64,000 bases of DNA from Escherichia phage MIZ4. The stretch is from sequence record OR167180. One strand, given 5' to 3'. The translations under genes and the position numbers were made by a program. Below are positions 5,389-40,850 of this stretch, one piece after another. The stretch's first letter is position 1, and each line of letters begins with the position of its first letter. The notes under the pieces are model-generated. The model saw nothing but the letters and a program-made list of their open reading frames with translations, ran no database searches and was not told where the DNA came from.

Positions 5389-6858
5389 CTATTCCCCATT
5401 ACCATTATACTTTCTTTGCTTAGTTATCCACACTCTAACCATCTCTACTGATTCACCGTCAGAGGGATCAAGAGTTTTTCCTTTTTTCTTCATGCGGTAC
5501 TTAAATCCGTTAAATCTTGCATTCTCTTGCTCGTTAAAGTCGAACATCTTTTTAAATGATTTTCTCCCTTTACGCTCACCGCATTCTAGCGGAATCATTC
5601 GGTCTGTTATTACATTGGCATTAGGTAGAAACGTTTTTAGATAATCTACCAACGCCCAATCAGGAACATATAGATTAACATTCTCCTTGCTCTCGTTGTC
5701 TCTCAGGTTACAACGCAAACATAATTGAAATGCTGGTTCCAGATAATCAGACACATGACGCGCTTTCAAAAACTCATTTGTCGGGAGATCACAACTATTA
5801 GCAAGACCTTTTAAAATATCAATCTCCCATCGTTGAGGGTTAAAGCTGAACATCACAGCAACATTTTTATGATGAATGTAAGAGTTAAGACCATAAGATC
5901 CGTAAGGTATCCGCTCACCAATACCATTTGTACACGCTTCACGGTCCCGATTCACGGTATAAATGAAGTCATCACCACATTCATTTTTAACCATATCAAC
6001 CAGACGTTCAAAGGTATTGTTTGTTTCTGACTGGTGACGCGACCATCGTTCGGAGTCCGTCATAAGGATGATGTTAACTCTATCTGTATTTTTATACTCT
6101 TTGAAATATAGTCTGGATTCTAGCGCACTCGGAACAAAATCGCAATTTGCATAGTATCGTAGATACTTCCCACTATATGTATCAAAGAGATTTGCACATG
6201 CTATCGTAACCTTTTTAAAGTCTCCCCACGTACCGTGTTTGTTATCGTTCAAGAAAACAATTTTCGACCCATTCTTCCGGTGGCCTTCGTTATGTTTTAC
6301 CATAACGTTGATTTTCTTCTCTAATAACGCCTCATAAAGCCCTCTAAGAGAAGAATCGATCATATCAGTACCATCCTTTGCACTTTCTATCTTTTCTTTG
6401 ATAGCGGCCTTCTCAGAGTCTTTTAGAACTAAGTTCTGTAGGCATTCCGATTCGTCGGCGATTGGTTCGCAATGCTTCGTGATAAGTTCAAGATTAGACT
6501 TAAACGGATACTCATTAAATTCAACCAGTTGAGGAACTTCATCAATGTAAAGAGCATAATCACCAAACATTTTTGAACGTTCCATATTAGATAACGCTGT
6601 ATGTGTAATGAATATCACATCAGCACCATCTTTAACTGATTGCATTATCGACGCTTGCACTGTCTTAAGGCTTCTTAGTCTTGTGCTATCAATCAAGACA
6701 GCACGACCGCCCATTCTTTTAAACTTATTGTAAGATTGTTCACTTAAAACACGAGATGGCGAAGCAATAACCGCTTTTTCTTTTGTCTCTAGGACGTGGG
6801 AAAGTATAGCATCAGTTTTCCCCGCCGCTGGCAATGCGATTAATGTTTCAATCTTCAT
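5389..6858 (-). CDS. P-loop NTPase of unknown function (489 aa)
   Basis: N-terminal Walker A-like ALPAAGKT and Walker B-like ALYIDEV; remainder Cys-containing with no recognised fold; not resembling T4 alpha-gt. Confidence 0.6.
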   Translation of the reverse strand: MKIETLIALPAAGKTDAILSHVLETKEKAVIASPSRVLSEQSYNKFKRMGGRAVLIDSTRLRSLKTVQASIMQSVKDGADVIFITHTALSNMERSKMFGDYALYIDEVPQLVEFNEYPFKSNLELITKHCEPIADESECLQNLVLKDSEKAAIKEKIESAKDGTDMIDSSLRGLYEALLEKKINVMVKHNEGHRKNGSKIVFLNDNKHGTWGDFKKVTIACANLFDTYSGKYLRYYANCDFVPSALESRLYFKEYKNTDRVNIILMTDSERWSRHQSETNNTFERLVDMVKNECGDDFIYTVNRDREACTNGIGERIPYGSYGLNSYIHHKNVAVMFSFNPQRWEIDILKGLANSCDLPTNEFLKARHVSDYLEPAFQLCLRCNLRDNESKENVNLYVPDWALVDYLKTFLPNANVITDRMIPLECGERKGRKSFKKMFDFNEQENARFNGFKYRMKKKGKTLDPSDGESVEMVRVWITKQRKYNGNGE

Positions 6859-7163
6859 TAGAAACCCTTACGTCGTGCTTTCTGGCATTTCTTGATCATT
6901 TTATCAGAAATTTCGCGCTTAGGTGCAATCTCTTTCACACCGAAAGCACTAATGCCAAATTCAGAGAGAATATATTCAACTAACAATTCACGCACACGCG
7001 CTTTACCGATATTCACGCCGTTATTTTTCAGATATGTCTGGCCTTCGACTTGCATCAGATCTAAATCAGCGTCGGTAATATTGATTTCTTCCATGCGCCC
7101 AAATCGAGAATAAACCATGTGTGCGATTGCATTGTGTACTAACATAATATATTCCTCACTCAA
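6858..7163 (-). CDS. Hypothetical protein (101 aa)
   Basis: ORF track; stop/start overlap with downstream P-loop gene. Confidence 0.5.
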   Translation of the reverse strand: MSEEYIMLVHNAIAHMVYSRFGRMEEINITDADLDLMQVEGQTYLKNNGVNIGKARVRELLVEYILSEFGISAFGVKEIAPKREISDKMIKKCQKARRKGF

Positions 7164-7164
7164 G

Positions 7165-7326
7165 AATTACTTAATGATACTTACTTTACCAGATCCATGA
7201 CAATGAGCGCAACACCCATCACCACGCAATCCTGTTCCGTTACAGTGTTTACACTTCTTCAACGGTAAAGCCATTATAGCAAATAAAGCAATAATGAACA
7301 CCGAAACTAAATTCTCAATAATCATA
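7165..7326 (-). CDS. Putative small membrane-anchored zinc-finger protein (~54 aa), not in ORF track
   Basis: Manual translation MIIENLVSVFIIALFAIMALPLKKCKHCNGTGLRGDGCCAHCHGSGKVSIIK: hydrophobic N-terminus then two CxxCxGxG repeats like a DnaJ-type zinc finger; start overlaps stop of upstream gene; coordinates approximate. Confidence 0.3.
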
Positions 7327-28415: not shown

Positions 28416-28751
28416 TTATCCTTTCTTAAACAAATTGCGAAGCCAGTATACAAACGGGATTTCTTTAAACTTGAATTTCTCAATAGTTAATTCTTTAGTA
28501 GCAAGATGAATACCATAAGCATCATGTGTAACTATATGCCATTTTCTATAGTCCAAATGTGAACAACCGTCTGGATCTAGGTTAATAAGAGTTTCTCGCT
28601 CACTAGGATTATTTTTCCACAATTTTGTAATAGGATCGCACATAATTCGACCTAGCGTACCATGAATAATCTCACAACGGTAAAGTTTTCCAGCAGTGAG
28701 ATAGGCGCACCCGTCATAGTCGGTATAAACAAACACTTCTTTAACACTCAT
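28416..28751 (-). CDS. Hypothetical protein (~111 aa), family D paralog
   Basis: Trimmed to MSVKEVFVYTDYDGCAYL; shares CSHLDYRKWHIV-type C-terminal block with the next two ORFs. Confidence 0.5.
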   Translation of the reverse strand: MSVKEVFVYTDYDGCAYLTAGKLYRCEIIHGTLGRIMCDPITKLWKNNPSERETLINLDPDGCSHLDYRKWHIVTHDAYGIHLATKELTIEKFKFKEIPFVYWLRNLFKKG

Positions 28752-28782
28752 TTTAATACTCCTTTGTTGTTTCGATGGGGGT

Positions 28783-28811
28783 ATATTACTACCCCCGATC
28801 ATGTGTGTCAA
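28783..28811 (-). promoter_or_regulatory. Sigma70-type early promoter cassette
   Basis: Minus-strand TTGACA (28806-28811), 17-nt spacer, TAATAT (28783-28788) within palindrome GGGGGTA..TACCCCC. Confidence 0.45.
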
Positions 28812-29072
28812 CTACTTTTTCAAGATTTTTTTAATTGCATTCCAAAGACCTTTATTCCCAGGTTGTTTTGGTTCTTCGATCAGTGTCCATGTTCGACCGT
28901 CTAAGTGTGCACAATTTTTAAGACAAATAAAAATCTGGTGTCCTTTATCATCACGGATATAACCACTATTCGCAAATCTTTCATGTGGTGTATATTCATA
29001 CAGTGTATTTGGTGTAATATACTTGCGGTTACTATAAGGTGTCATCACATACATCATGGTACTAACTCCCAT
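28812..29072 (-). CDS. Hypothetical protein (86 aa), family D paralog
   Basis: YEYTPHERFANSGYIRDDKGHQIFICLKNCAHLDGRTWTLI. Confidence 0.5.
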   Translation of the reverse strand: MGVSTMMYVMTPYSNRKYITPNTLYEYTPHERFANSGYIRDDKGHQIFICLKNCAHLDGRTWTLIEEPKQPGNKGLWNAIKKILKK

Positions 29073-29248
29073 TTATCACCGCGAAGATGAGAACATACAC
29101 CATCAAGAAGGATCGTAATACGATAACCTATATCATCTTTGATGTAACCGATTGTCGGTGGATGTTCGTCGTCTCGTGCCGGGGTAAAATCATACATCTT
29201 TCCAGGCGTAATATCTTGTCCTTTATTGCTATTGGTATAAACTTGCAT
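29054..29248 (-). CDS. Hypothetical protein (64 aa), family D paralog
   Basis: YDFTPARDDEHPPTIGYIKDDIGYRITILLDGVCSHLRGDKWELV. Confidence 0.5.
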   Translation of the reverse strand: MQVYTNSNKGQDITPGKMYDFTPARDDEHPPTIGYIKDDIGYRITILLDGVCSHLRGDKWELVP

Positions 29249-29269: not shown

Positions 29270-29968
29270 CTAACCACGGGTATAGTGTTCCAGAACAACT
29301 GTCAGATGAATATATTCTAATAGATCTTTCCAAAAGTCAACATCTGGTTCTTCCGGCATACCGTTTTTCTTTGCCTCTTCACGCGCGAGTTTAACACGCT
29401 CGTAGAGATCTTTCAATTCTTCCCGCACATTATCAAAGGTTCTTTCTCCTAACTTACACGCTAAAATAGAAGAACGTCGCGCGAGCGGGAATTGTAGATC
29501 ACCAGTTTGATAGATTTCAAGTAGCTGATAACCAACACGCAGAGCATGAGAAAGATCTTTCCAGTTACTGAAATACTTTTCAGATTTTGCTACCTGTTTC
29601 TTGAGATAACCAGACAAACCCCACATCCCAACATGATAGAATTTATCGCGATGTGTTCGGATGTATTCCCATTCTCTGGAGGATTCAACCAACATGTTAC
29701 TAGGCGCGTGCACCATATCAATAGCGCCGATATCACCTTTACATGCCAGATTGATAAACCGTTTTAGACTGAACATATTAACGTCAATATCGTCTTTGGT
29801 GTTCTTGATACCTTGACCGCTAGTGCTTTGGTCATAGTGTTCTTTCATAGATCCTAAGATAATTTCTTTCGCAGTCGGAACAAAGATACCACGATAATCT
29901 TTATCTGAATTTTCAGTATCAAGGCCGTACAAGTGAGATCCGAAGACCATTTTAACCATTGTATGCAT
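29270..29968 (-). CDS. Predicted pol-beta-superfamily nucleotidyltransferase
   Basis: N-terminal FGSHLYGLDTENSDKDYRGIF fits the GS-x(9-13)-DxD minimal nucleotidyltransferase signature. Confidence 0.55.
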   Translation of the reverse strand: MHTMVKMVFGSHLYGLDTENSDKDYRGIFVPTAKEIILGSMKEHYDQSTSGQGIKNTKDDIDVNMFSLKRFINLACKGDIGAIDMVHAPSNMLVESSREWEYIRTHRDKFYHVGMWGLSGYLKKQVAKSEKYFSNWKDLSHALRVGYQLLEIYQTGDLQFPLARRSSILACKLGERTFDNVREELKDLYERVKLAREEAKKNGMPEEPDVDFWKDLLEYIHLTVVLEHYTRG

Positions 29969-29986
29969 AATTAAACCCTCAGTTGA

Positions 29987-30580
29987 TTAAACGTATTCAG
30001 CAACAACATTATGTTTAAAATTACCGCTCCTTTTTGGATTTGGATTTTTCAATCGACTATGTATTAAATTTTTGTTGTATCCGGTTGCTTTAGACGCTTC
30101 GCCAATACTTTGATAAACAACACCATTAACACGAATCGGACGAGACTTATTAAACAGTTTATTCAATCCGGCATCATATGCATGGTTTTGGTTTTCTTGC
30201 CTCGTTGCGATCTCAAGATTCCAAACACAATTACAAGATTTTACCCCACTTTTATGATTAATTTCAAGACCTTCACAATCACCTATAAAGTGTTCAGCAA
30301 CTAGTCTATGAATATAGCGATATTTCTTACTTTCCCCATCATGCAAGCATACATTATAATAACCATCACCAGCGCGTTTAGGTCGGAGTAGTTTACCTTT
30401 AACACGTTTTATAGTAGGGAACTCACCAAATTGATTTCTCTGGATAAACGGAATCTCGCGGTCTAATGAACGGATTCGACCATAGTTAGACACTTGATAA
30501 AAACTTTCATATCCTTTAATTGGCTTCCATATCTCAGGGATTTCTACACCATCAATAACAACAAGTTTAAATTCTTCCAT
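29987..30580 (-). CDS. HNH homing endonuclease (NUMOD4-HNH-NUMOD1-like architecture)
   Basis: YQVSNYGRIRS (NUMOD4-like), HNH region CLHDGESKKYRYIHRLVAEHF...INHKSG...NLEIATRQEN, C-terminal VNGVVYQSIGEASKATG helix-turn-helix-like. Confidence 0.8.
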   Translation of the reverse strand: MEEFKLVVIDGVEIPEIWKPIKGYESFYQVSNYGRIRSLDREIPFIQRNQFGEFPTIKRVKGKLLRPKRAGDGYYNVCLHDGESKKYRYIHRLVAEHFIGDCEGLEINHKSGVKSCNCVWNLEIATRQENQNHAYDAGLNKLFNKSRPIRVNGVVYQSIGEASKATGYNKNLIHSRLKNPNPKRSGNFKHNVVAEYV

Positions 30581-30628: not shown

Positions 30629-31042
30629 TTACATAGATTCCGTAAAGGTACGGGTGATAATATCAAGTTGTTGTTCGCGTGTCAAGGCGTTGAAGCGGGT
30701 AGCATAACCACTGATTCGAATTGTAAGCTGCGGGTACTTCTCAGGATGTTCAACCGCATCAAGAAGAGTCTCCCGACGCAGTACATTCGCGTTGAGATGA
30801 TGACCCGCGTTACTATTTACCCCGTTATCAATTGCTAAAGGACGGAAGCTAGTTGTGTGCAGTTCCAGCGAATCGACGTCTTCTGCGGTGATCACATGAT
30901 CTTCTGCGAAAGTTTTACTAACAATTACTTTAGCGCCGATCAGTGCTTTCGGTTCGGATACCAGAATCATAGGCGCGAAATGTCCACCGATAATAGTACC
31001 TTTATGCTCACCTTTCATGATTTGAATTGCTTTAAATTCCAT
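30629..31042 (-). CDS. Autonomous glycyl radical cofactor (GrcA/YfiD-like, PFL C-terminal domain homolog)
   Basis: C-terminal [29 protein letters not shown] matches the PFL/GrcA glycyl-radical signature; a T4 YfiD homolog is known. Confidence 0.85.
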
Positions 31043-35695: not shown

Positions 35696-35914
35696 TTATT
35701 TATATCGCTTTCTCTCGCGACGTTTTTGATCTTCTTCCTTGATAGAGTTAAATGCATCAAAAAGACACATGACACTAATAATAAACATAACCGTATTTTC
35801 TACGATATCCCACGGCTTCGCATCAGTACAGATCCCCCAAACGGTAAGAAATGCAAATAGTGCAGAAGAGATCACAAGCATGATACTTGCTAAGATATAA
35901 AAAGTCATTTTCAT
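35696..35914 (-). CDS. Small hydrophobic membrane protein (72 aa)
   Basis: ORF track; TM helices; basic C-terminus. Confidence 0.5.
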   Translation of the reverse strand: MKMTFYILASIMLVISSALFAFLTVWGICTDAKPWDIVENTVMFIISVMCLFDAFNSIKEEDQKRRERKRYK

Positions 35915-36105
35915 GGTTTTACCTCAATTCTTCGATATTCATCACACATCCACACAGTAAGCAAGAATCCCAACACATAAGCAACAAAATACGTTAATAC
36001 TTCTTCTGGTTCGGTGCTATGCGCCATCATCAGACCAGCGAGAAAGGTCTTAACAATTACATTTAAAATAATTAGCCACGCAAATAATTTCATCGTTTGC
36101 CCCAT
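35911..36105 (-). CDS. Small hydrophobic membrane protein (64 aa)
   Basis: ORF track. Confidence 0.5.
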   Translation of the reverse strand: MGQTMKLFAWLIILNVIVKTFLAGLMMAHSTEPEEVLTYFVAYVLGFLLTVWMCDEYRRIEVKP

Positions 36106-36329
36106 TTCGGTCGAGTCTTTTCAAACTTATACATTCCGTAACAATCTCGAATCATCCACGTAACAAGAGCACCAGTCAACACCGACAATACACAGAAGAA
36201 GTAAAACGGTCCGGTTGCATTATCAACATGAGCAAGCCAGGTAAAGAAAACACATGCTAAGAATGTAAAGAACATCATAAAGCACAAGAAAGCGAAATAT
36301 TTTATACTACTCATAGCGCCACCATACAA
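36090..36329 (-). CDS. Small hydrophobic membrane protein (79 aa)
   Basis: ORF track. Confidence 0.5.
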   Translation of the reverse strand: MYGGAMSSIKYFAFLCFMMFFTFLACVFFTWLAHVDNATGPFYFFCVLSVLTGALVTWMIRDCYGMYKFEKTRPKWGKR

Positions 36330-36417
36330 CAGATCATAAGAAACCCCAACGCAATAAGAATTGCATCAAATTTAGTGAACTCCGGTCCACCTATCAACAT
36401 CATTCGTTCCTGTTCAT

Positions 36418-36615
36418 TCATAGATCACAGAGCCATCTTAAAGCACCACATAAAGCGAGCAGAATACTAGGTATAAACGAGACTAAAACAAGTTTACAAA
36501 AATCATCTAAGGTAACACCGGAATAGCTACCTACTGTAACAACACCGATCATCAGACACAGAAAGAAAACAAATGCAATCAGAAACAAAGTATTGCTAAA
36601 CAGTTTAGTGATCAT
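36418..36615 (-). CDS. Small hydrophobic membrane protein (65 aa)
   Basis: ORF track. Confidence 0.5.
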   Translation of the reverse strand: MITKLFSNTLFLIAFVFFLCLMIGVVTVGSYSGVTLDDFCKLVLVSFIPSILLALCGALRWLCDL

Positions 36616-36639: not shown

Positions 36640-36810
36640 TCAAAAACTTTTTTTACCATCAACGAAGCATGTCACAACTGCCTCGTTGACTTCCGCAAAT
36701 TGTTGTGTTACCCACTTAAGGTCAGATCGAAACAATGTTCTATTAATAACAAATGTTTTACCGCTCTTATCCTTACCCATAAATTTTGCTTTAACCATAT
36801 CCAATTCCAT
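36640..36810 (-). CDS. Hypothetical small protein (~56 aa), not in ORF track
   Basis: Manual translation MELDMVKAKFMGKDKSGKTFVINRTLFRSDLKWVTQQFAEVNEAVVTCFVDGKKSF preceded by SD AGGTGA; coordinates approximate. Confidence 0.35.
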   Translation of the reverse strand: MELDMVKAKFMGKDKSGKTFVINRTLFRSDLKWVTQQFAEVNEAVVTCFVDGKKSF

Positions 36811-36819
36811 ATTATCACC

Positions 36820-36978
36820 TTATTTGCTAATCGCTAAACCTAATCCGAAGAGAGCACCCGAGGCTACAGTATACCCGAAAGTTTCAAAGGCAGTAAAGAC
36901 ATCTAAGCCACCAGCTAACAGAGTTGCAGTAAACAGAGTACCAGCTACGAACATAAAAGTTTTACCGATAAATTTCAT
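36820..36978 (-). CDS. Small hydrophobic membrane protein (~52 aa), not in ORF track
   Basis: Manual translation MKFIGKTFMFVAGTLFTATLLAGGLDVFTAFETFGYTVASGALFGLGLAISK directly after the conserved GGAGAATCAAA leader; coordinates approximate. Confidence 0.4.
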   Translation of the reverse strand: MKFIGKTFMFVAGTLFTATLLAGGLDVFTAFETFGYTVASGALFGLGLAISK

Positions 36979-37044: not shown

Positions 37045-37422
37045 TTAAGAATATTTTACTTCGTCTACAATGTCTTTCATGACATTGATTTCCATTCCGG
37101 TCAGAACACGTTGGAACATGTGCTGCACATACGCTTTCAGGTATTCATTTGATGGCTTACTATCGAAAGTCTTTTTAGTGTAGTAGTCATCACCGAAAGC
37201 TACTGTAATTACATTTTCGTCGTCGTTCCAAGCGATATAAGCAAATTTGCCGTTATCCCAGAAGCGAGCACTAATTGCTACTTTTGTTGAATCGAATCCT
37301 ACTTCGCTGTGAGATTCAAGAACTACTTGCGTACCAGTTTCTTTATGAATGTAGTAGCGGGATACTAAGTCAAAGTTACGGGTGTAGTGACATTCGAATT
37401 TATCTTTAAACATCATCATCAT
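37045..37422 (-). CDS. Hypothetical protein (~125 aa)
   Basis: Trimmed to MMMMFKDKFECHY, the ATG after the GGAGAATCAAA leader; the track start at 37491 runs through the promoter. Confidence 0.5.
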   Translation of the reverse strand: MMMMFKDKFECHYTRNFDLVSRYYIHKETGTQVVLESHSEVGFDSTKVAISARFWDNGKFAYIAWNDDENVITVAFGDDYYTKKTFDSKPSNEYLKAYVQHMFQRVLTGMEINVMKDIVDEVKYS

Positions 37423-37459: not shown

Positions 37460-37488
37460 ATTATGCTATAGTCGTTTATGGTTGTCAA
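37460..37488 (-). promoter_or_regulatory. Sigma70-type early promoter cassette
   Basis: Minus-strand TTGACA (37483-37488), 17-nt spacer, CATAAT (37460-37465), immediately downstream of terminator hairpin. Confidence 0.55.
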
Positions 37489-37493
37489 CACCT

Positions 37494-37524
37494 AAAAACA
37501 AAAAACCCCGAAAAATTTTCGGGG
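37494..37524 (-). terminator. Intrinsic terminator downstream of 57B-like gene
   Basis: CCCCGAAAA-ATTTTCGGGG hairpin at 37506-37524 followed on the minus strand by TTTTTTGTTTTT. Confidence 0.65.
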
Positions 37525-37531
37525 TATAAAA

Positions 37532-38002
37532 TTACAGTTTGGTCGTCCACTCCAGGTCTAGATCTTCGACATACTCATGAGATCGGACAATCTCTAAATC
37601 GAACTCTAGGTCAGTGCCAAATTTACGCGCACCAACATCATAAGAAAGCGTGATATGCGGTACATATTCAGGATAATCCCACGTCGCACCTAAAGCAGTG
37701 CCGATATCGTGTCTGAATTGCATGTAGTCGCTTTCAAATGCCAGCACAAGCGCATTAGTACTGGATTGAGTTTCAAACACTTTCAGATGGCATAGAGAGC
37801 CTAAGAACTTCTCCCCTTCTTCTGGGATAAACGGAACATAGACACGAGAATATAAGATAGTGCTATGCAGTTTATCACGAGGAACGGCATTAGGCAGATC
37901 GTAGAACTCCTGCAATTTTTCAATGCGGTCTAGTGTATCCTCAGTGAATTTAACCGCAGCATATGTACCTTTAACGGATTCTCGAAACGGGGTCATAATC
38001 AA
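37532..38002 (-). CDS. 57B: 2H-phosphoesterase family protein, gp57B-like (candidate Acb1-type cyclic-oligonucleotide phosphodiesterase)
   Basis: Two H-x-T/S-x motifs (HSTILYS and HITLSY) spaced as in 2H phosphoesterases; position immediately before 57A and gene 1 matches T4 57B. Confidence 0.55.
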   Translation of the reverse strand: MIMTPFRESVKGTYAAVKFTEDTLDRIEKLQEFYDLPNAVPRDKLHSTILYSRVYVPFIPEEGEKFLGSLCHLKVFETQSSTNALVLAFESDYMQFRHDIGTALGATWDYPEYVPHITLSYDVGARKFGTDLEFDLEIVRSHEYVEDLDLEWTTKL

Positions 38003-38265
38003 GCCTCCGTGATCAGTTCTACTTCCTCTTCTGCTTCTTCTGCGGCTTCGTCTTTAGGGAGAAGTGCTTTCACTTCTTCGACGATAGCATCAAGGGAAAC
38101 AGTCCCGTTTTCGTCTGGCTGAATACCCAGAATGCGTACCAGTTCCATCAATACACGCTCACGATCTTTCAGTTGGCCTTCTAAGAATGCGGCCTTTTCT
38201 TGAGTGTCAAACAGACGTACTTTCAGGACATTAATCATTTGTTCATGCTGATTGGACATATTCAC
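37999..38265 (-). CDS. 57A: gp57A-like tail-fibre assembly chaperone (small coiled-coil protein)
   Basis: 88-aa coiled-coil with acidic C-terminus; positional equivalence between 57B and gene 1; similarity not verified. Confidence 0.5.
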   Translation of the reverse strand: MNMSNQHEQMINVLKVRLFDTQEKAAFLEGQLKDRERVLMELVRILGIQPDENGTVSLDAIVEEVKALLPKDEAAEEAEEEVELITEA

Positions 38266-38291: not shown

Positions 38292-38948
38292 TTAAATGTT
38301 CGCGAGAATCGCGCTTTCAAATTCTTCTAATGTACCATTATTTATGATAATGGTTTCACCGTCAATAGGCAAAATTCCTTTTTCGGTGGAGTGAGTCGAT
38401 ACAATACCAGTATCACGCTGAATATGCAACACCTTAGCACCCATAGCACGCACGAGAGCAATTTCAATAGGCTGACGCACATCAACCACTACAAAATAAC
38501 CTTCTTCATTTTTGCGCTTCATAAACTCATTCACGAAGAGATTACACCAATAAAGCGGATTGATCAAGTTAACCATTATATCAGTACCGAGAGTGGTTAA
38601 CATGAGACGAATAGACCAGACGTTATTATGTTTTTCGCCGATCTCATTAACGACCTTGTAAATCTCAGCCAGACAATCACAAGTAAAGGAACTACCGCCA
38701 TACTTCGAATCTAGCATAAGCAGACACTGAATAAACCACTTATGCGCGGTATAGGTATCAATACCTAGATCGGCTTCTCTGTCACGCCCTAACCCGTCAA
38801 AGTCAAGATAAGTCAGACCTAAGTCTGGTTGACATTCGCATAAGATTTCTTTGATCGGTGCTGCCAGTTGATAACTGTGTCCATCAATGATTAACGCGGC
38901 AGTGTCTTTTCCTACTCGCTTTTTACCACAAAGTGCAATCAATTTCAT
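38292..38948 (-). CDS. 1: Deoxynucleoside monophosphate kinase gp1
   Basis: MKLIALCGKKRVGKDT (P-loop), QLAAPIK, SIRLMLTTLGTD, VVVDVRQ...ALVRAMGAKVLHIQRD match recalled T4 gp1. Confidence 0.9.
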   Translation of the reverse strand: MKLIALCGKKRVGKDTAALIIDGHSYQLAAPIKEILCECQPDLGLTYLDFDGLGRDREADLGIDTYTAHKWFIQCLLMLDSKYGGSSFTCDCLAEIYKVVNEIGEKHNNVWSIRLMLTTLGTDIMVNLINPLYWCNLFVNEFMKRKNEEGYFVVVDVRQPIEIALVRAMGAKVLHIQRDTGIVSTHSTEKGILPIDGETIIINNGTLEEFESAILANI

Positions 38949-38963
38949 TATATAAGCCTCTTA

Positions 38964-39554
38964 TTACTTTCTAAAAGCAGGGTGCATAGCTTTAATACCT
39001 TCCACCCGCTGACGATCCGCCGCCTGAATTGCTGGGCGAGGAACGATCAGTTGACCATCACGTTCAATGCTCATTGTCTTAAATGGAAGAATTGCAGTAC
39101 ACACCAGAGATTCATGCATATCATCGGTGTATGTTAACTCAAGTTCCCCCAATTGTGAACACCAACAACCATAAAAGTTAAAAGTGCACACAATGTTACG
39201 TCGTTCATTGTCCATCATATGAACTTGAACGGCTTCCGGCATTGAATCCTTCCACGCTGTGGAGTTACCGTTATTATAGTCTACTATAGAAAGCATCCAT
39301 GTGTAAAGGTTTAGATAGCTTTCCAAATGCTCATCGACAATAAACCGGACTACCAACGGGTCAAACTCCACATGACTAGACGGATAATCAGCGACCGCCA
39401 AACCATATTGACCAGCAACTTGCTTAGTCGGTGGAATGGTTATAGCCGGAAGTGTAACACCTTGACAGTTTAAAGTAAAGCCTTTTGTTAGTTGACCATC
39501 TGGAATGGCAATCTGCCAGTTGCTAGGGTTAGCATAGTTAAAGAGATTAGACAT
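38964..39554 (-). CDS. 3: gp3-like tail completion / sheath stabiliser (positional assignment)
   Basis: 196-aa ORF immediately after gene 1 as in T4; assignment is positional only. Confidence 0.5.
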   Translation of the reverse strand: MSNLFNYANPSNWQIAIPDGQLTKGFTLNCQGVTLPAITIPPTKQVAGQYGLAVADYPSSHVEFDPLVVRFIVDEHLESYLNLYTWMLSIVDYNNGNSTAWKDSMPEAVQVHMMDNERRNIVCTFNFYGCWCSQLGELELTYTDDMHESLVCTAILPFKTMSIERDGQLIVPRPAIQAADRQRVEGIKAMHPAFRK

Positions 39555-39743: not shown

Positions 39744-39998
39744 ATGACAGAAGACATTTTGTTAAAACTCTATGATCGTTTGGATAACGAATTAGCAACA
39801 TTGCGGGGTGAAGTTCTCTATTTGTCGAAATGCAATACAGATCTGCTTAAGCAGATTGCAGAAAGGGATGATCAAATAAAATCCCTTTCAGGTGCATTAC
39901 GTGATCGCGACAAGGCATTAGAGATTTTACAGCGTGTTACCAATAAGGAAGAATTAAAAGACTTCTTACATGGTTATGCTCATGCCATCGATCTATAA
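39744..39998 (+). CDS. Hypothetical coiled-coil protein (84 aa), plus-strand gene inside minus-strand block
   Basis: ORF track; SD GAGGA before ATG; upstream TAATAAATA late-promoter-like box; no equivalent between genes 3 and 2 in T4. Confidence 0.35.
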   Translation: MTEDILLKLYDRLDNELATLRGEVLYLSKCNTDLLKQIAERDDQIKSLSGALRDRDKALEILQRVTNKEELKDFLHGYAHAIDL

Positions 39999-40023
39999 TA
40001 AAAAAGCCCGTCATTGACGGGCT
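39994..40023 (-). terminator. Intrinsic terminator after gp2 (bidirectional hairpin)
   Basis: AGCCCGTCA-TTG-ACGGGCT hairpin at 40005-40023 followed on the minus strand by TTTTTTATTAT. Confidence 0.6.
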
Positions 40024-40028
40024 TAATC

Positions 40029-40850
40029 TTATGCATCCTTCCACACCTTCCTTGCATCATAGTTTTTACCTTTAGAAACAAATTTATATGTGTTAAGGTA
40101 GATAATATTGCTCCAGTCTTTCGGGCTAATCTCAACAAGTTTTGTTTTAATGTGTCCCGGTAGATATGCTTTGATCATGTGATCACTTCCACGCATACCT
40201 TTTACATCGCTCCATTTGATTTTTAAGCGTGTTTTATTGCTCAAGGTAGGAGTAGATGCATATTGCTTTAAAAGTGCTTCCAGAAACTGCTGACGGGCTT
40301 TAGGCGTTACATAGTGTAAGTTAAGACCCAGCATTACAGTATTACCCGCCTTTGTCTTAGAATCACCCAGACAAATGATCAGCGGGAAAACATCCCAATA
40401 TGGCAAAGTGTCTTTATACTTCGCATCATACATAAAGGTATAGATTCGCCCTACTTGCGGTTTTACAATCTGGTGTCCCTTTATTCCCGCTTTTATTGTT
40501 TTAGTAAACCACTCCTGTGATTTTTCTTTAGGACGACTCTTTGATACAGCACGCATAGACGCACGAAAATCATTAATCATCATCATTGCGCGTTGCTGCT
40601 TATTGAGACCCTTTGCGCCTTTCCCTTTTAGTTTTTCAACTTCTATTGCTGTTTTAATTTCGCTAGCATAACGAGACATACTTTTAGTGAAAGTCGCATA
40701 GGCTATTCCCTTAGAATCTGCAAATGCTTTAGCTGTCATGCCTTTGGCTTTTGCTTTCGCAAATTCTACACCCAATTCGACCCACTGTTTAGACTTTCGT
40801 TTTTGGGGAGACGGCTTTTCGTCTTCGGTGATTATTTCAAATACGCTCAT
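40029..40850 (-). CDS. 2: gp2-like DNA end protector protein
   Basis: 273-aa basic protein (T4 gp2 is 274 aa) directly downstream of gp4; positional and size match, sequence similarity not verified. Confidence 0.55.
   Translation of the reverse strand: MSVFEIITEDEKPSPQKRKSKQWVELGVEFAKAKAKGMTAKAFADSKGIAYATFTKSMSRYASEIKTAIEVEKLKGKGAKGLNKQQRAMMMINDFRASMRAVSKSRPKEKSQEWFTKTIKAGIKGHQIVKPQVGRIYTFMYDAKYKDTLPYWDVFPLIICLGDSKTKAGNTVMLGLNLHYVTPKARQQFLEALLKQYASTPTLSNKTRLKIKWSDVKGMRGSDHMIKAYLPGHIKTKLVEISPKDWSNIIYLNTYKFVSKGKNYDARKVWKDA

What the first reader, a model, noticed from the sequence alone, without database searches (positions are those of the whole stretch)
37532..38002. 57B-like 2H phosphoesterase, a candidate anti-CBASS cyclic-nucleotide phosphodiesterase (Acb1-type)
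Two HxT/S motifs (HSTI, HITL) define a 2H phosphoesterase at the T4 57B position. T4 57B has been characterised as Acb1, which degrades CBASS cyclic oligonucleotide signals. This homolog is diverged and would be worth testing for substrate range.
Basis: partly seen in the sequence, partly recalled or inferred. Interest (0 to 1): 0.45.

Follow-up and report, generated by a model that had tools for sequence, protein, structure and literature searches.

The report
Known phage anti-CBASS nuclease Acb1

Summary
The ORF is real. It lies on the minus strand at 37532-37996, 154 aa. The ATG at 37996 is the better start than the TTG at 38002. It carries two HxT motifs, H44-S-T46 and H114-I-T116.

It is a full-length member of Pfam PF23474 (Acb1): 172.5 bits against a cut-off of 27. 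It is 51% identical to the crystallised FBB1 Acb1 (PDB 7T26/7T27, E 1e-42) and 46-47% identical to T4 Acb1. All nine published catalytic and ligand-contact positions are kept, as is the C-terminal Trp lid. An AlphaFold model (pLDDT 91) superposes on 7T26 at 0.9 Å, TM 0.97. E. coli LigT gives only TM ~0.5, and the LigT-type profiles fall below their cut-offs.

The gene order 3 – 1 – 57A – 57B matches T4, T2 and FBB1. The window is a Krischvirus, 100% identical over the 2.6 kb compared to Escherichia phage MIZ5. The gene is 97-100% identical in 58 public genomes, where it is labelled 57B, "RNA ligase" or "hypothetical protein".

The most likely function is metal-independent cleavage of adenine-containing cyclic di- and trinucleotides. 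Activity of this particular orthologue has not been tested. The finding is already known and of low interest.

The parts
37532..37996 (-). acb1 (gene 57B orthologue), 154 aa plus stop; a 2H phosphoesterase with H44-x-T46 and H114-x-T116
   Evidence: ORF and translation. Pfam PF23474, 172.5 bits. PDB 7T26/7T27, E 1.3e-42. Residue mapping. Model and Foldseek.
37997..38013 (-). Translation-initiation region. GGAGG sits 7 nt upstream of the ATG. The 57A stop codon TGA (37999-38001) lies 2 nt before the acb1 ATG, so the two genes are probably translationally coupled.
   Evidence: Read directly from the sequence. The coupling itself is an inference.
37999..38259 (-). Gene 57A (tail-fibre assembly chaperone), immediately upstream and co-directional
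   Evidence: Pfam GP57, 27.7 bits. phrog_1002 tail fiber chaperone, E 4.5e-26. JSE annotation.
38292..38948 (-). Gene 1 (dNMP kinase), upstream member of the same co-directional gene string
   Evidence: Pfam DNMK, E 2.2e-67.
38964..39554 (-). Gene 3 (tail completion / sheath stabiliser), first gene of the 3-1-57A-57B string
   Evidence: Pfam Phage_T4_gp19-like, 31.5 bits. JSE and T4 annotation.
37497..37525 (-). Intrinsic-terminator-like hairpin (9-bp stem ACCCCGAAA/TTTCGGGGT, then TTTTTTGTTTTT). It begins 7 nt after the acb1 stop codon and ends the transcription unit.
   Evidence: Terminator scan. RNA fold -14.1 kcal/mol, z = -2.65.
38337..38365 (-). Sigma-70-like promoter match (TTGACG-17-AATAAT, 10/12) inside the 3' end of gene 1, about 75 nt upstream of 57A. 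It is a candidate early promoter for 57A-acb1.
   Evidence: Consensus scan only; function not shown.

Best explanation
The gene encodes the Krischvirus (RB49-like phage) orthologue of T4 Acb1 (gp57B), a small 2H phosphoesterase made during infection.

By homology it binds CBASS second messengers that contain at least one adenosine: 3'3'-cGAMP, cUA, cAA, cAAA, cAAG, and probably 2'3'-c-di-AMP. The ligand would sit in a U-shaped pocket lined by Y12, F74, Y108 and the lid residue W150, with E144 contacting adenine N6. The C-terminal lid closes over it. The H44/T46/H114/T116 tetrad then performs metal-independent acid-base cleavage 3' of adenosine, through a 2',3'-cyclic phosphate intermediate, giving a linear product that cannot activate CBASS effectors. 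The phage thereby escapes CBASS abortive infection.

Shown here: the ORF, its family membership, residue conservation, predicted fold, synteny, purifying selection and transcript-end signals. Inferred from T4 and FBB1 biochemistry: substrate list, chemistry and in-vivo role.
For: - Pfam PF23474 Acb1: E 5.8e-51, 172.5 bits against a cut-off of 27, covering residues 9-152 of 154.
- phmmer to 7T26/7T27 (FBB1 Acb1): E 1.3e-42.
- BLASTP to T4 Acb1 (NP_049750): 46% identity, E 3e-46.
- All 63 database homologues carry PF23474, and some are named 'Anti-CBASS protein Acb1' by UniRef.
- Functional residues named by Hobbs et al. 2022 (PMC9117128; the numbering matches T4 Acb1 in alignment A1, not FBB1) map to window residues as follows: H44 to H44, T46 to T46, H113 to H114, T115 to T116, Y12 to Y12, W74 to F74, F107 to Y108, E141 to E144, W147 to W150. 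F74 and Y108 are the residues found in the crystallised FBB1 protein.
- Across 61 family members H44, T46, H114 and T116 are invariant. Y12 is present in 60/61, E144 in 56/61 and W150 in 47/61.
- AlphaFold2 model: pLDDT 91.2, pTM 0.84.
- Foldseek: 7T26 E 2e-16, rmsd 0.9 Å, TM 0.97 normalised to the target; 7T27 rmsd 1.7 Å. LigT gives TM ~0.5 and rmsd ~7 Å.
- Synteny 3-1-57A-57B is identical to T4, T2, FBB1 and JSE.
- Against JSE there are 8 synonymous and 1 non-synonymous codon differences, which indicates purifying selection.
- Hobbs et al. report that all 9 further Acb1 homologues they cloned cleaved 3'3'-cGAMP and cAAA.
Against: No enzymatic or genetic data exist for this orthologue or any Krischvirus Acb1 in the literature I could search. 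An RB49-like phage, vB_EcoM-G2494, has a gene 99.4% identical at the nucleotide level. It was in the Hobbs lysate screen, but its individual result is only in a figure I could not read.

The protein is only 46-51% identical to the characterised enzymes. Doherty et al. 2025 (bioRxiv 10.1101/2025.08.21.671373) show that core differences within the same structural group can shift substrate preference, so the exact substrate list is not secure.

GenBank, RefSeq and PHROGs label the gene 'RNA ligase'. That is a legacy 2H-superfamily name and no experiment supports it.
Confidence: 0.9

Rival explanations
1. It is a LigT/ThpR-type 2'-5' RNA ligase or RNA 2',3'-cyclic phosphodiesterase acting on RNA ends (for example in tRNA repair), as the 'RNA ligase' label in RefSeq and PHROGs implies.
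For: It belongs to the same 2H superfamily. Weak sub-threshold hits exist to 2_5_RNA_ligase2 (19.6 bits), LigT_PEase (14.1 bits) and TIGR02258 (13.5 bits). phrog_755 is labelled 'RNA ligase'. LigT structures appear in the Foldseek list at E ~1e-3.
Against: All LigT-type profiles fall below their curated cut-offs (27, 23.3 and 65.7 bits), while Acb1 scores 172.5 bits. Structural match to LigT is TM ~0.5, rmsd ~7 Å and 11-13% identity, against TM 0.97, 0.9 Å and 51% for Acb1. The Acb1-specific ligand-stacking aromatics, E144 and the C-terminal Trp lid are all present. The T4 orthologue was shown to be the cyclic-oligonucleotide nuclease (PMC9117128).
Confidence: 0.03
2. It is an Acb1-fold enzyme whose substrate range has shifted. 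It might spare the Panoptes decoy 2'3'-c-di-AMP, or target other signals such as 3'2'-cGAMP, cGG or cA4, so it would not behave like T4 Acb1 against the same defence systems.
For: Identity to the tested enzymes is only 46-51%. Position 106, two residues from the stacking residue Y108, is Trp here but usually Tyr in the family (W in 4/61, Y in 44/61). Doherty et al. found that product profiles and 2'3'-c-di-AMP preference differ within T4 Acb1's structural group, and that the core, not the lid, decides this.
Against: All named contact residues are conserved. The model superposes on FBB1 Acb1 at 0.9 Å. The lid is C-terminal as in T4 and FBB1, unlike PDE-9 with its N-terminal lid. All nine homologues tested by Hobbs et al. 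cleaved both 3'3'-cGAMP and cAAA. The 2-residue longer 127-135 loop is the common length in the family, not a peculiarity.
Confidence: 0.1
3. It is an inactive or decaying remnant that is conserved only because it sits in the 57A transcription unit.
For: Two Krischvirus records, Cognac and TB34, show frameshifts in this gene. Natural acb1 loss-of-function alleles exist in T4-like phages, for example the Bas43 nonsense mutation (PMC12657230). T4 Δacb1 grows normally without CBASS.
Against: The reading frame in the window is intact, and every catalytic and binding residue is present. Substitutions against JSE are 8 synonymous to 1 non-synonymous. In tblastn, 53 records encode a protein at least 99% identical.
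Confidence: 0.02

Closest known systems
T4 Acb1 (gp57B, NP_049750), the founding anti-CBASS nuclease (Hobbs et al., Nature 2022, PMC9117128)
   Same: Orthologous position directly after 57A in the 3-1-57A-57B string. Similar length (154 aa against 152). The HxT/HxT tetrad, Y12, E141 (E144 here) and the lid W147 (W150 here) are all kept. Member of the same Pfam family PF23474.
   Different: Only 46% identical. F74 replaces W74, Y108 replaces F107 and W106 replaces H105. The 127-135 loop is 2 residues longer and there is one extra residue at position 81. The downstream neighbour is not ipI: an unknown 124-aa ORF follows, then dmd. Activity is untested.
Erwinia phage FBB1 Acb1 (PDB 7T26 apo, 7T27 with 3'3'-cGAMP product)
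   Same: 51% identity. The model superposes at 0.9 Å with TM 0.97. It has the same F74 and Y108 stacking residues and the same synteny.
   Different: The host genus and phage genus differ (Roskildevirus against Krischvirus). The 127-135 loop is 2 residues longer in the window protein.
2H PDE-9 of Burkholderia phage BCSR5 (PDB 9Q2Y/9Q2G; Doherty et al. 2025 preprint)
   Same: Same structural group of viral 2H phosphodiesterases. Third-best structural match (TM ~0.7).
   Different: 15-17% identity. PDE-9 has an N-terminal lid, whereas the window protein has a C-terminal lid. PDE-9 disfavours 2'3'-c-di-AMP.
E. coli LigT/ThpR (PDB 5LDI etc.), a cellular 2H phosphoesterase
   Same: 2H fold with two HxT/S motifs.
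   Different: TM ~0.5 and 11-13% identity. Profiles are below cut-off. It acts on RNA 2',3'-cyclic phosphate ends, not on cyclic-oligonucleotide immune signals.

Membership tests
Acb1 (Pfam PF23474, anti-CBASS nuclease) | Whole-length match to the curated family profile above its gathering score | tested here: met
   172.5 bits against a cut-off of 27, E 5.8e-51. Residues 9-152 match profile positions 1-143 of 144.
Acb1 (Pfam PF23474, anti-CBASS nuclease) | Catalytic HxT/HxT tetrad (T4 H44, T46, H113, T115) | tested here: met
   Window H44, T46, H114, T116. These are invariant in 61/61 homologues.
Acb1 (Pfam PF23474, anti-CBASS nuclease) | Aromatic nucleobase-stacking residues (T4 Y12, W74, F107) and the adenine-N6-contacting Glu (T4 E141) | tested here: met
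   Window Y12, F74, Y108, E144. F74 and Y108 are identical to the crystallised FBB1 protein. Column make-up: F 41 / W 20; F 41 / Y 15; E 56 of 61.
Acb1 (Pfam PF23474, anti-CBASS nuclease) | Short C-terminal lid carrying the stacking Trp (T4 residues 145-152, W147) | tested here: met
   The window C-terminus is L148-E-W150-T-T-K-L154. W is present in 47/61 homologues. The last three residues of the model have low pLDDT, which is consistent with a flexible lid.
Acb1 (Pfam PF23474, anti-CBASS nuclease) | Compact 2H fold superposable on solved Acb1 | tested here: met
   AlphaFold2 model with pLDDT 91.2. Foldseek: 7T26 rmsd 0.9 Å, TM 0.97 normalised to the target, 0.86 to the query. This is a predicted structure, not an experimental one.
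Acb1 (Pfam PF23474, anti-CBASS nuclease) | Orthologous genome position in T4-like phages (after 57A, in the 3-1-57A-57B string) | tested here: met
   Window genes identified by Pfam and PHROGs. Same order in T4, T2, FBB1 and JSE.
Acb1 (Pfam PF23474, anti-CBASS nuclease) | Metal-independent cleavage of 3'3'-cGAMP and cAAA 3' of adenosine | not testable with these tools
   Needs recombinant protein and TLC or HPLC. No published assay of a Krischvirus Acb1 was found.
Acb1 (Pfam PF23474, anti-CBASS nuclease) | Protects the phage from CBASS in vivo | not testable with these tools
   Needs a deletion phage and CBASS-carrying hosts.
LigT/ThpR 2'-5' RNA ligase / RNA 2',3'-cyclic phosphodiesterase | Match to LigT family profiles above the curated cut-off | tested here: not met
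   PF02834: 14.1 bits against 23.3. PF13563: 19.6 against 27. TIGR02258 equivalog: 13.5 against 65.7.
LigT/ThpR 2'-5' RNA ligase / RNA 2',3'-cyclic phosphodiesterase | Close structural similarity to solved LigT | tested here: not met
   Foldseek TM 0.45-0.59, rmsd 4.6-10.8 Å and 10-13% identity for 5LDI, 5LDJ, 5LDK, 5LDM, 5LDO, 5LDP and 5LDQ. Only superfamily-level resemblance.

The most novel reading that the evidence does not exclude
The Krischvirus Acb1 clade is a tight group, at least 95% identical within itself in all but one phage record and about 50% identical to other phage Acb1 proteins. Its core substitutions, for example W106 near the stacking residue Y108, might give it a shifted substrate profile. 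It could, for instance, spare the Panoptes decoy 2'3'-c-di-AMP, or cleave signals that T4 Acb1 handles poorly such as 3'2'-cGAMP or cGG. That would change which defence systems these phages evade or trigger.
Probability: 0.1. Interest if true: 0.4.

Novelty: already known. Interest (0 to 1): 0.12.

Why it matters
The practical value is in annotation. In most of the 58 public Krischvirus genomes this gene is labelled 'hypothetical protein' or, misleadingly, 'RNA ligase'. It should be named anti-CBASS nuclease Acb1.

For phage-therapy candidates of the RB49 group, it predicts resistance to adenine-containing CBASS signals. By analogy with T4 Acb1, it may also predict sensitivity to decoy-signal systems such as Panoptes.

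It opens no new biological question beyond the routine one of this clade's substrate range.

Tried and rejected
- **LigT/RNA-ligase reading.** Tested with Pfam, NCBIfam and Foldseek. Rejected: all below cut-off, TM ~0.5.
- **TTG 38002 as the start codon.** Rejected in favour of ATG 37996 (Shine-Dalgarno spacing, 57A stop position, database annotation).
- **The 2-residue 'insertion' relative to T4 and FBB1 as a clade peculiarity.** Rejected: that loop varies in length across the family, and many homologues have the window's length.
- **Literature on a tested Krischvirus Acb1.** Nothing found. MM02 and Bas46-47, named with Acb1 in PMC12657230, are not among the 58 near-identical Krischvirus records, so that work does not cover this clade.
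- **The RB49-like phage G2494 in the Hobbs screen.** It is listed, but the per-phage outcome is only in a figure I could not read.
- **A second anti-CBASS gene in the window.** tblastn with T4 Vs.4/Acb2 found nothing at E <= 1. This is low-sensitivity and does not cover the rest of the genome.
- **T4-type late promoters.** TATAAATA occurs 4 times in 64 kb against 6.25 expected, and none lies upstream of this operon. Expression timing remains unknown.

Full report
**Observation**

The minus strand carries an uninterrupted ORF from 38002 to 37532. The mechanical ORF call begins at a TTG that overlaps the TGA stop (37999-38001) of the upstream gene. Two codons further in, at 37996, there is an ATG preceded by GGAGG with a 7-nt spacer. 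The orthologous '57B' CDS of phage JSE is annotated with exactly this 465-nt extent. I therefore take the gene as 37532-37996, 154 aa.

As bare patterns they are weak evidence, since composition predicts 0.7 HxT/S matches in a protein like this. The significance comes from whole-length comparisons.

**What it is**

- hmmscan gives Pfam PF23474 'Anti-CBASS protein Acb1' at E 5.8e-51. The score is 172.5 bits against a gathering cut-off of 27, and the match covers residues 9-152.
- The only solved-structure relative by sequence is Acb1 of Erwinia phage FBB1 (7T26 apo, 7T27 with cleaved 3'3'-cGAMP), at E 1.3e-42.
- BLASTP against T4 gp57B/Acb1 gives 46% identity, E 3e-46. A five-way alignment gives 47% to T4 and T2, 51% to FBB1 and 99% to JSE.
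- A search of the 5.8-billion-protein collection returned 63 homologues. All carry PF23474, and some are named 'Anti-CBASS protein Acb1' by UniRef.
- PHROGs places it in phrog_755, labelled 'RNA ligase'. This is the source of the label seen in RefSeq records.

**Functional residues**

Hobbs et al. 2022 (PMC9117128) define three features of Acb1:
- an HxT/HxT catalytic tetrad (H44, T46, H113, T115);
- four nucleobase-stacking aromatics (Y12, W74, F107, W147);
- a Glu that reads adenine N6 (E141), plus a C-terminal lid (residues 145-152) that orders over the ligand.

In alignment A1 this numbering fits T4 Acb1 rather than FBB1. The figure legend also gives T4-equivalent positions in parentheses. 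The window protein has H44, T46, H114, T116, Y12, F74, Y108, W150 and E144 at these positions. F74 and Y108 are exactly the residues of the crystallised FBB1 enzyme.

Across 61 family members H44, T46, H114 and T116 are invariant. Y12 is found in 60/61. Position 74 is F (41) or W (20), and position 108 is F (41) or Y (15). E144 is found in 56/61 and W150 in 47/61.

Relative to T4 and FBB1 the 127-135 loop is two residues longer. That loop varies in length in the family, and the window's length is common.

**Fold**

An AlphaFold2 model built on the 61-sequence alignment has mean pLDDT 91.2 and pTM 0.84. Only the first five and last three residues have low confidence.

| Foldseek target (PDB) | rmsd | TM | Identity / E |
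|---|---|---|---|
| 7T26, FBB1 Acb1 apo | 0.9 Å over 138 columns | 0.97 (target), 0.86 (query) | E 2e-16 |
| 7T27, FBB1 Acb1 with product | 1.7 Å | | |
| 9Q2Y/9Q2G, Burkholderia phage PDE-9 | | ~0.7 | 15-17% |
| E. coli LigT | ~7 Å | ~0.5 | 11-13% |

LigT-type profiles are all below their curated cut-offs: PF02834 14.1 against 23.3, PF13563 19.6 against 27, and TIGR02258 13.5 against 65.7.

**Context**

The window is a Krischvirus (RB49-like, Straboviridae). The 2.6 kb around the gene is 100% identical to Escherichia phage MIZ5 and 98-99% identical to 57 other records, including RB49, JSE and Phi1.

Upstream and co-directional lie three genes:
- gene 3 (38964-39554);
- gene 1, dNMP kinase (38292-38948, Pfam DNMK E 2e-67);
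- gene 57A, the tail-fibre chaperone (37999-38259).

The order is the same in T4, T2, FBB1 and JSE.

The acb1 ATG lies 2 nt after the 57A stop, which suggests translational coupling (inference). Seven nucleotides after the acb1 stop there is a 9-bp GC-rich hairpin followed by TTTTTTGTTTTT (-14.1 kcal/mol, z -2.65). It is followed by a strong sigma-70-like promoter (TTGACA-17-CATAAT) for the next gene. So acb1 ends its transcription unit. A sigma-70-like match inside the end of gene 1 (38365-38337) could drive early 57A-acb1 transcription, but this is only a consensus hit.

Downstream the locus differs from T4. There is no ipI. Instead there is an unknown 124-aa ORF (phrog_15253), a 52-aa ORF, and then a Dmd homologue at 36640-36810.

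**Selection**

Against JSE the gene differs at 9 nucleotides in 9 codons, 8 synonymous and 1 non-synonymous (S79G). In tblastn, 53 records encode a protein at least 99% identical, while nucleotide identity ranges from 97 to 100%. This is the pattern of a gene under purifying selection. Outside the Krischvirus clade, all but one of the 1,473 matching phage records fall below 60% identity. The metagenome collection does hold intermediates of 78, 70 and 62%.

**Mechanism (inferred)**

By homology with T4 and FBB1 Acb1 (PMC9117128), the protein should:
- bind cyclic di- and trinucleotides containing at least one adenosine;
- close its C-terminal lid over the ligand;
- cleave 3' of adenosine by metal-independent acid-base catalysis through a 2',3'-cyclic phosphate intermediate.

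This removes the CBASS signal before effectors fire. T4 Acb1 also degrades 2'3'-c-di-AMP and thereby triggers Panoptes (PMC12657230; Doherty et al. preprint). The window protein shares the C-terminal-lid architecture, so the same liability is plausible but untested.

**Novelty**

The family is curated in Pfam, named in UniRef and structurally solved. All nine additional homologues tested by Hobbs et al. were active. This exact gene is in GenBank, and has been labelled '57B' since the RB49, JSE and Phi1 annotations.

An RB49-like phage, vB_EcoM-G2494, whose gene is 99.4% identical at the nucleotide level, was in the original lysate screen. I could not read its individual result. I found no paper that assays a Krischvirus Acb1 on its own.

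The verdict is: already known, and of low interest. The only open point is the substrate range of this roughly 50%-diverged clade. I give about 10% probability that it differs materially.

Noticed in passing
window 36640-36810 (-): A Dmd homologue (the T4 antitoxin that neutralises the RnlA/LsoA defence toxins) lies about 720 nt downstream of acb1 (Pfam PF17587 E 2.4e-11; phrog_2102). In T4, dmd is elsewhere and ipI sits next to acb1. Krischviruses thus have a different small anti-defence cluster at this spot.
   Followed up: partly
window 37045-37419 (-) and 36820-36978 (-): Two ORFs of unknown function lie between acb1 and dmd: 124 aa (phrog_15253, with a weak sub-threshold Gp30.7-like hit) and 52 aa (phrog_16462). 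The first has its own strong sigma-70-like promoter (TTGACA-17-CATAAT, 37488..37460). By position they are candidate anti-defence genes.
   Followed up: partly
window 28416-29248 (-): Three tandem small paralogous ORFs (111, 86 and 64 aa; 28-40% identity; shared pattern Y..T...G.I...C.HL...W) occupy the position where T4 has vs.3, vs.4 (Acb2) and vs.5, between regB and the GrcA-like vs.6 gene. They have no Pfam hit. tblastn found no T4 Acb2 homologue anywhere in the window.
   Followed up: partly
window 29270-30580 (-): An RlaP-family nucleotidyltransferase (PF10127, 54 bits; 29270-29968) sits next to a NUMOD4+HNH homing endonuclease (29987-30580). Both lie just before the glycyl-radical GrcA-like gene (30629-31042).
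   Followed up: no
L006 (phage Cognac MZ504877) 301-764; L007 (phage TB34 OX001802) 301-767: Two Krischvirus records carry frameshifts in acb1. Cognac has a 1-nt deletion at nt 191, which splits the gene into two annotated CDSs. TB34 has two 1-nt insertions. These may be sequencing errors (TB34 has 547 features in 165 kb) or natural loss-of-function alleles like the Bas43 acb1 nonsense mutation linked to Panoptes resistance.
   Followed up: partly
window 39998-40029, compared with L001 (JSE) 6028-7170: JSE has a 1143-nt 'endonuclease' CDS between the 84-aa plus-strand ORF and gene 2. The window lacks it, so this looks like a mobile homing-endonuclease insertion that is polymorphic among Krischviruses.
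   Followed up: no
window 40029-40850 (-): The gene 2 (DNA end protector) ORF is 273 aa. An N-terminal ~75-aa segment matches a separate PHROG (phrog_32288, 'HTH DNA binding protein') ahead of the phrog_429 end-protector part. JSE annotates only 248 aa.
   Followed up: no
window 35696-36615 (-): A run of four or five very small, strongly hydrophobic ORFs (64-79 aa, PHROGs of unknown function), with overlapping stop and start codons, lies downstream of dmd.
   Followed up: no
whole window: The T4 late-promoter motif TATAAATA occurs only 4 times in 64 kb (6.25 expected by chance). The sequence upstream of gene 3 has TAATAAATA instead, so late promoters in this phage may not follow the strict T4 consensus.
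   Followed up: no
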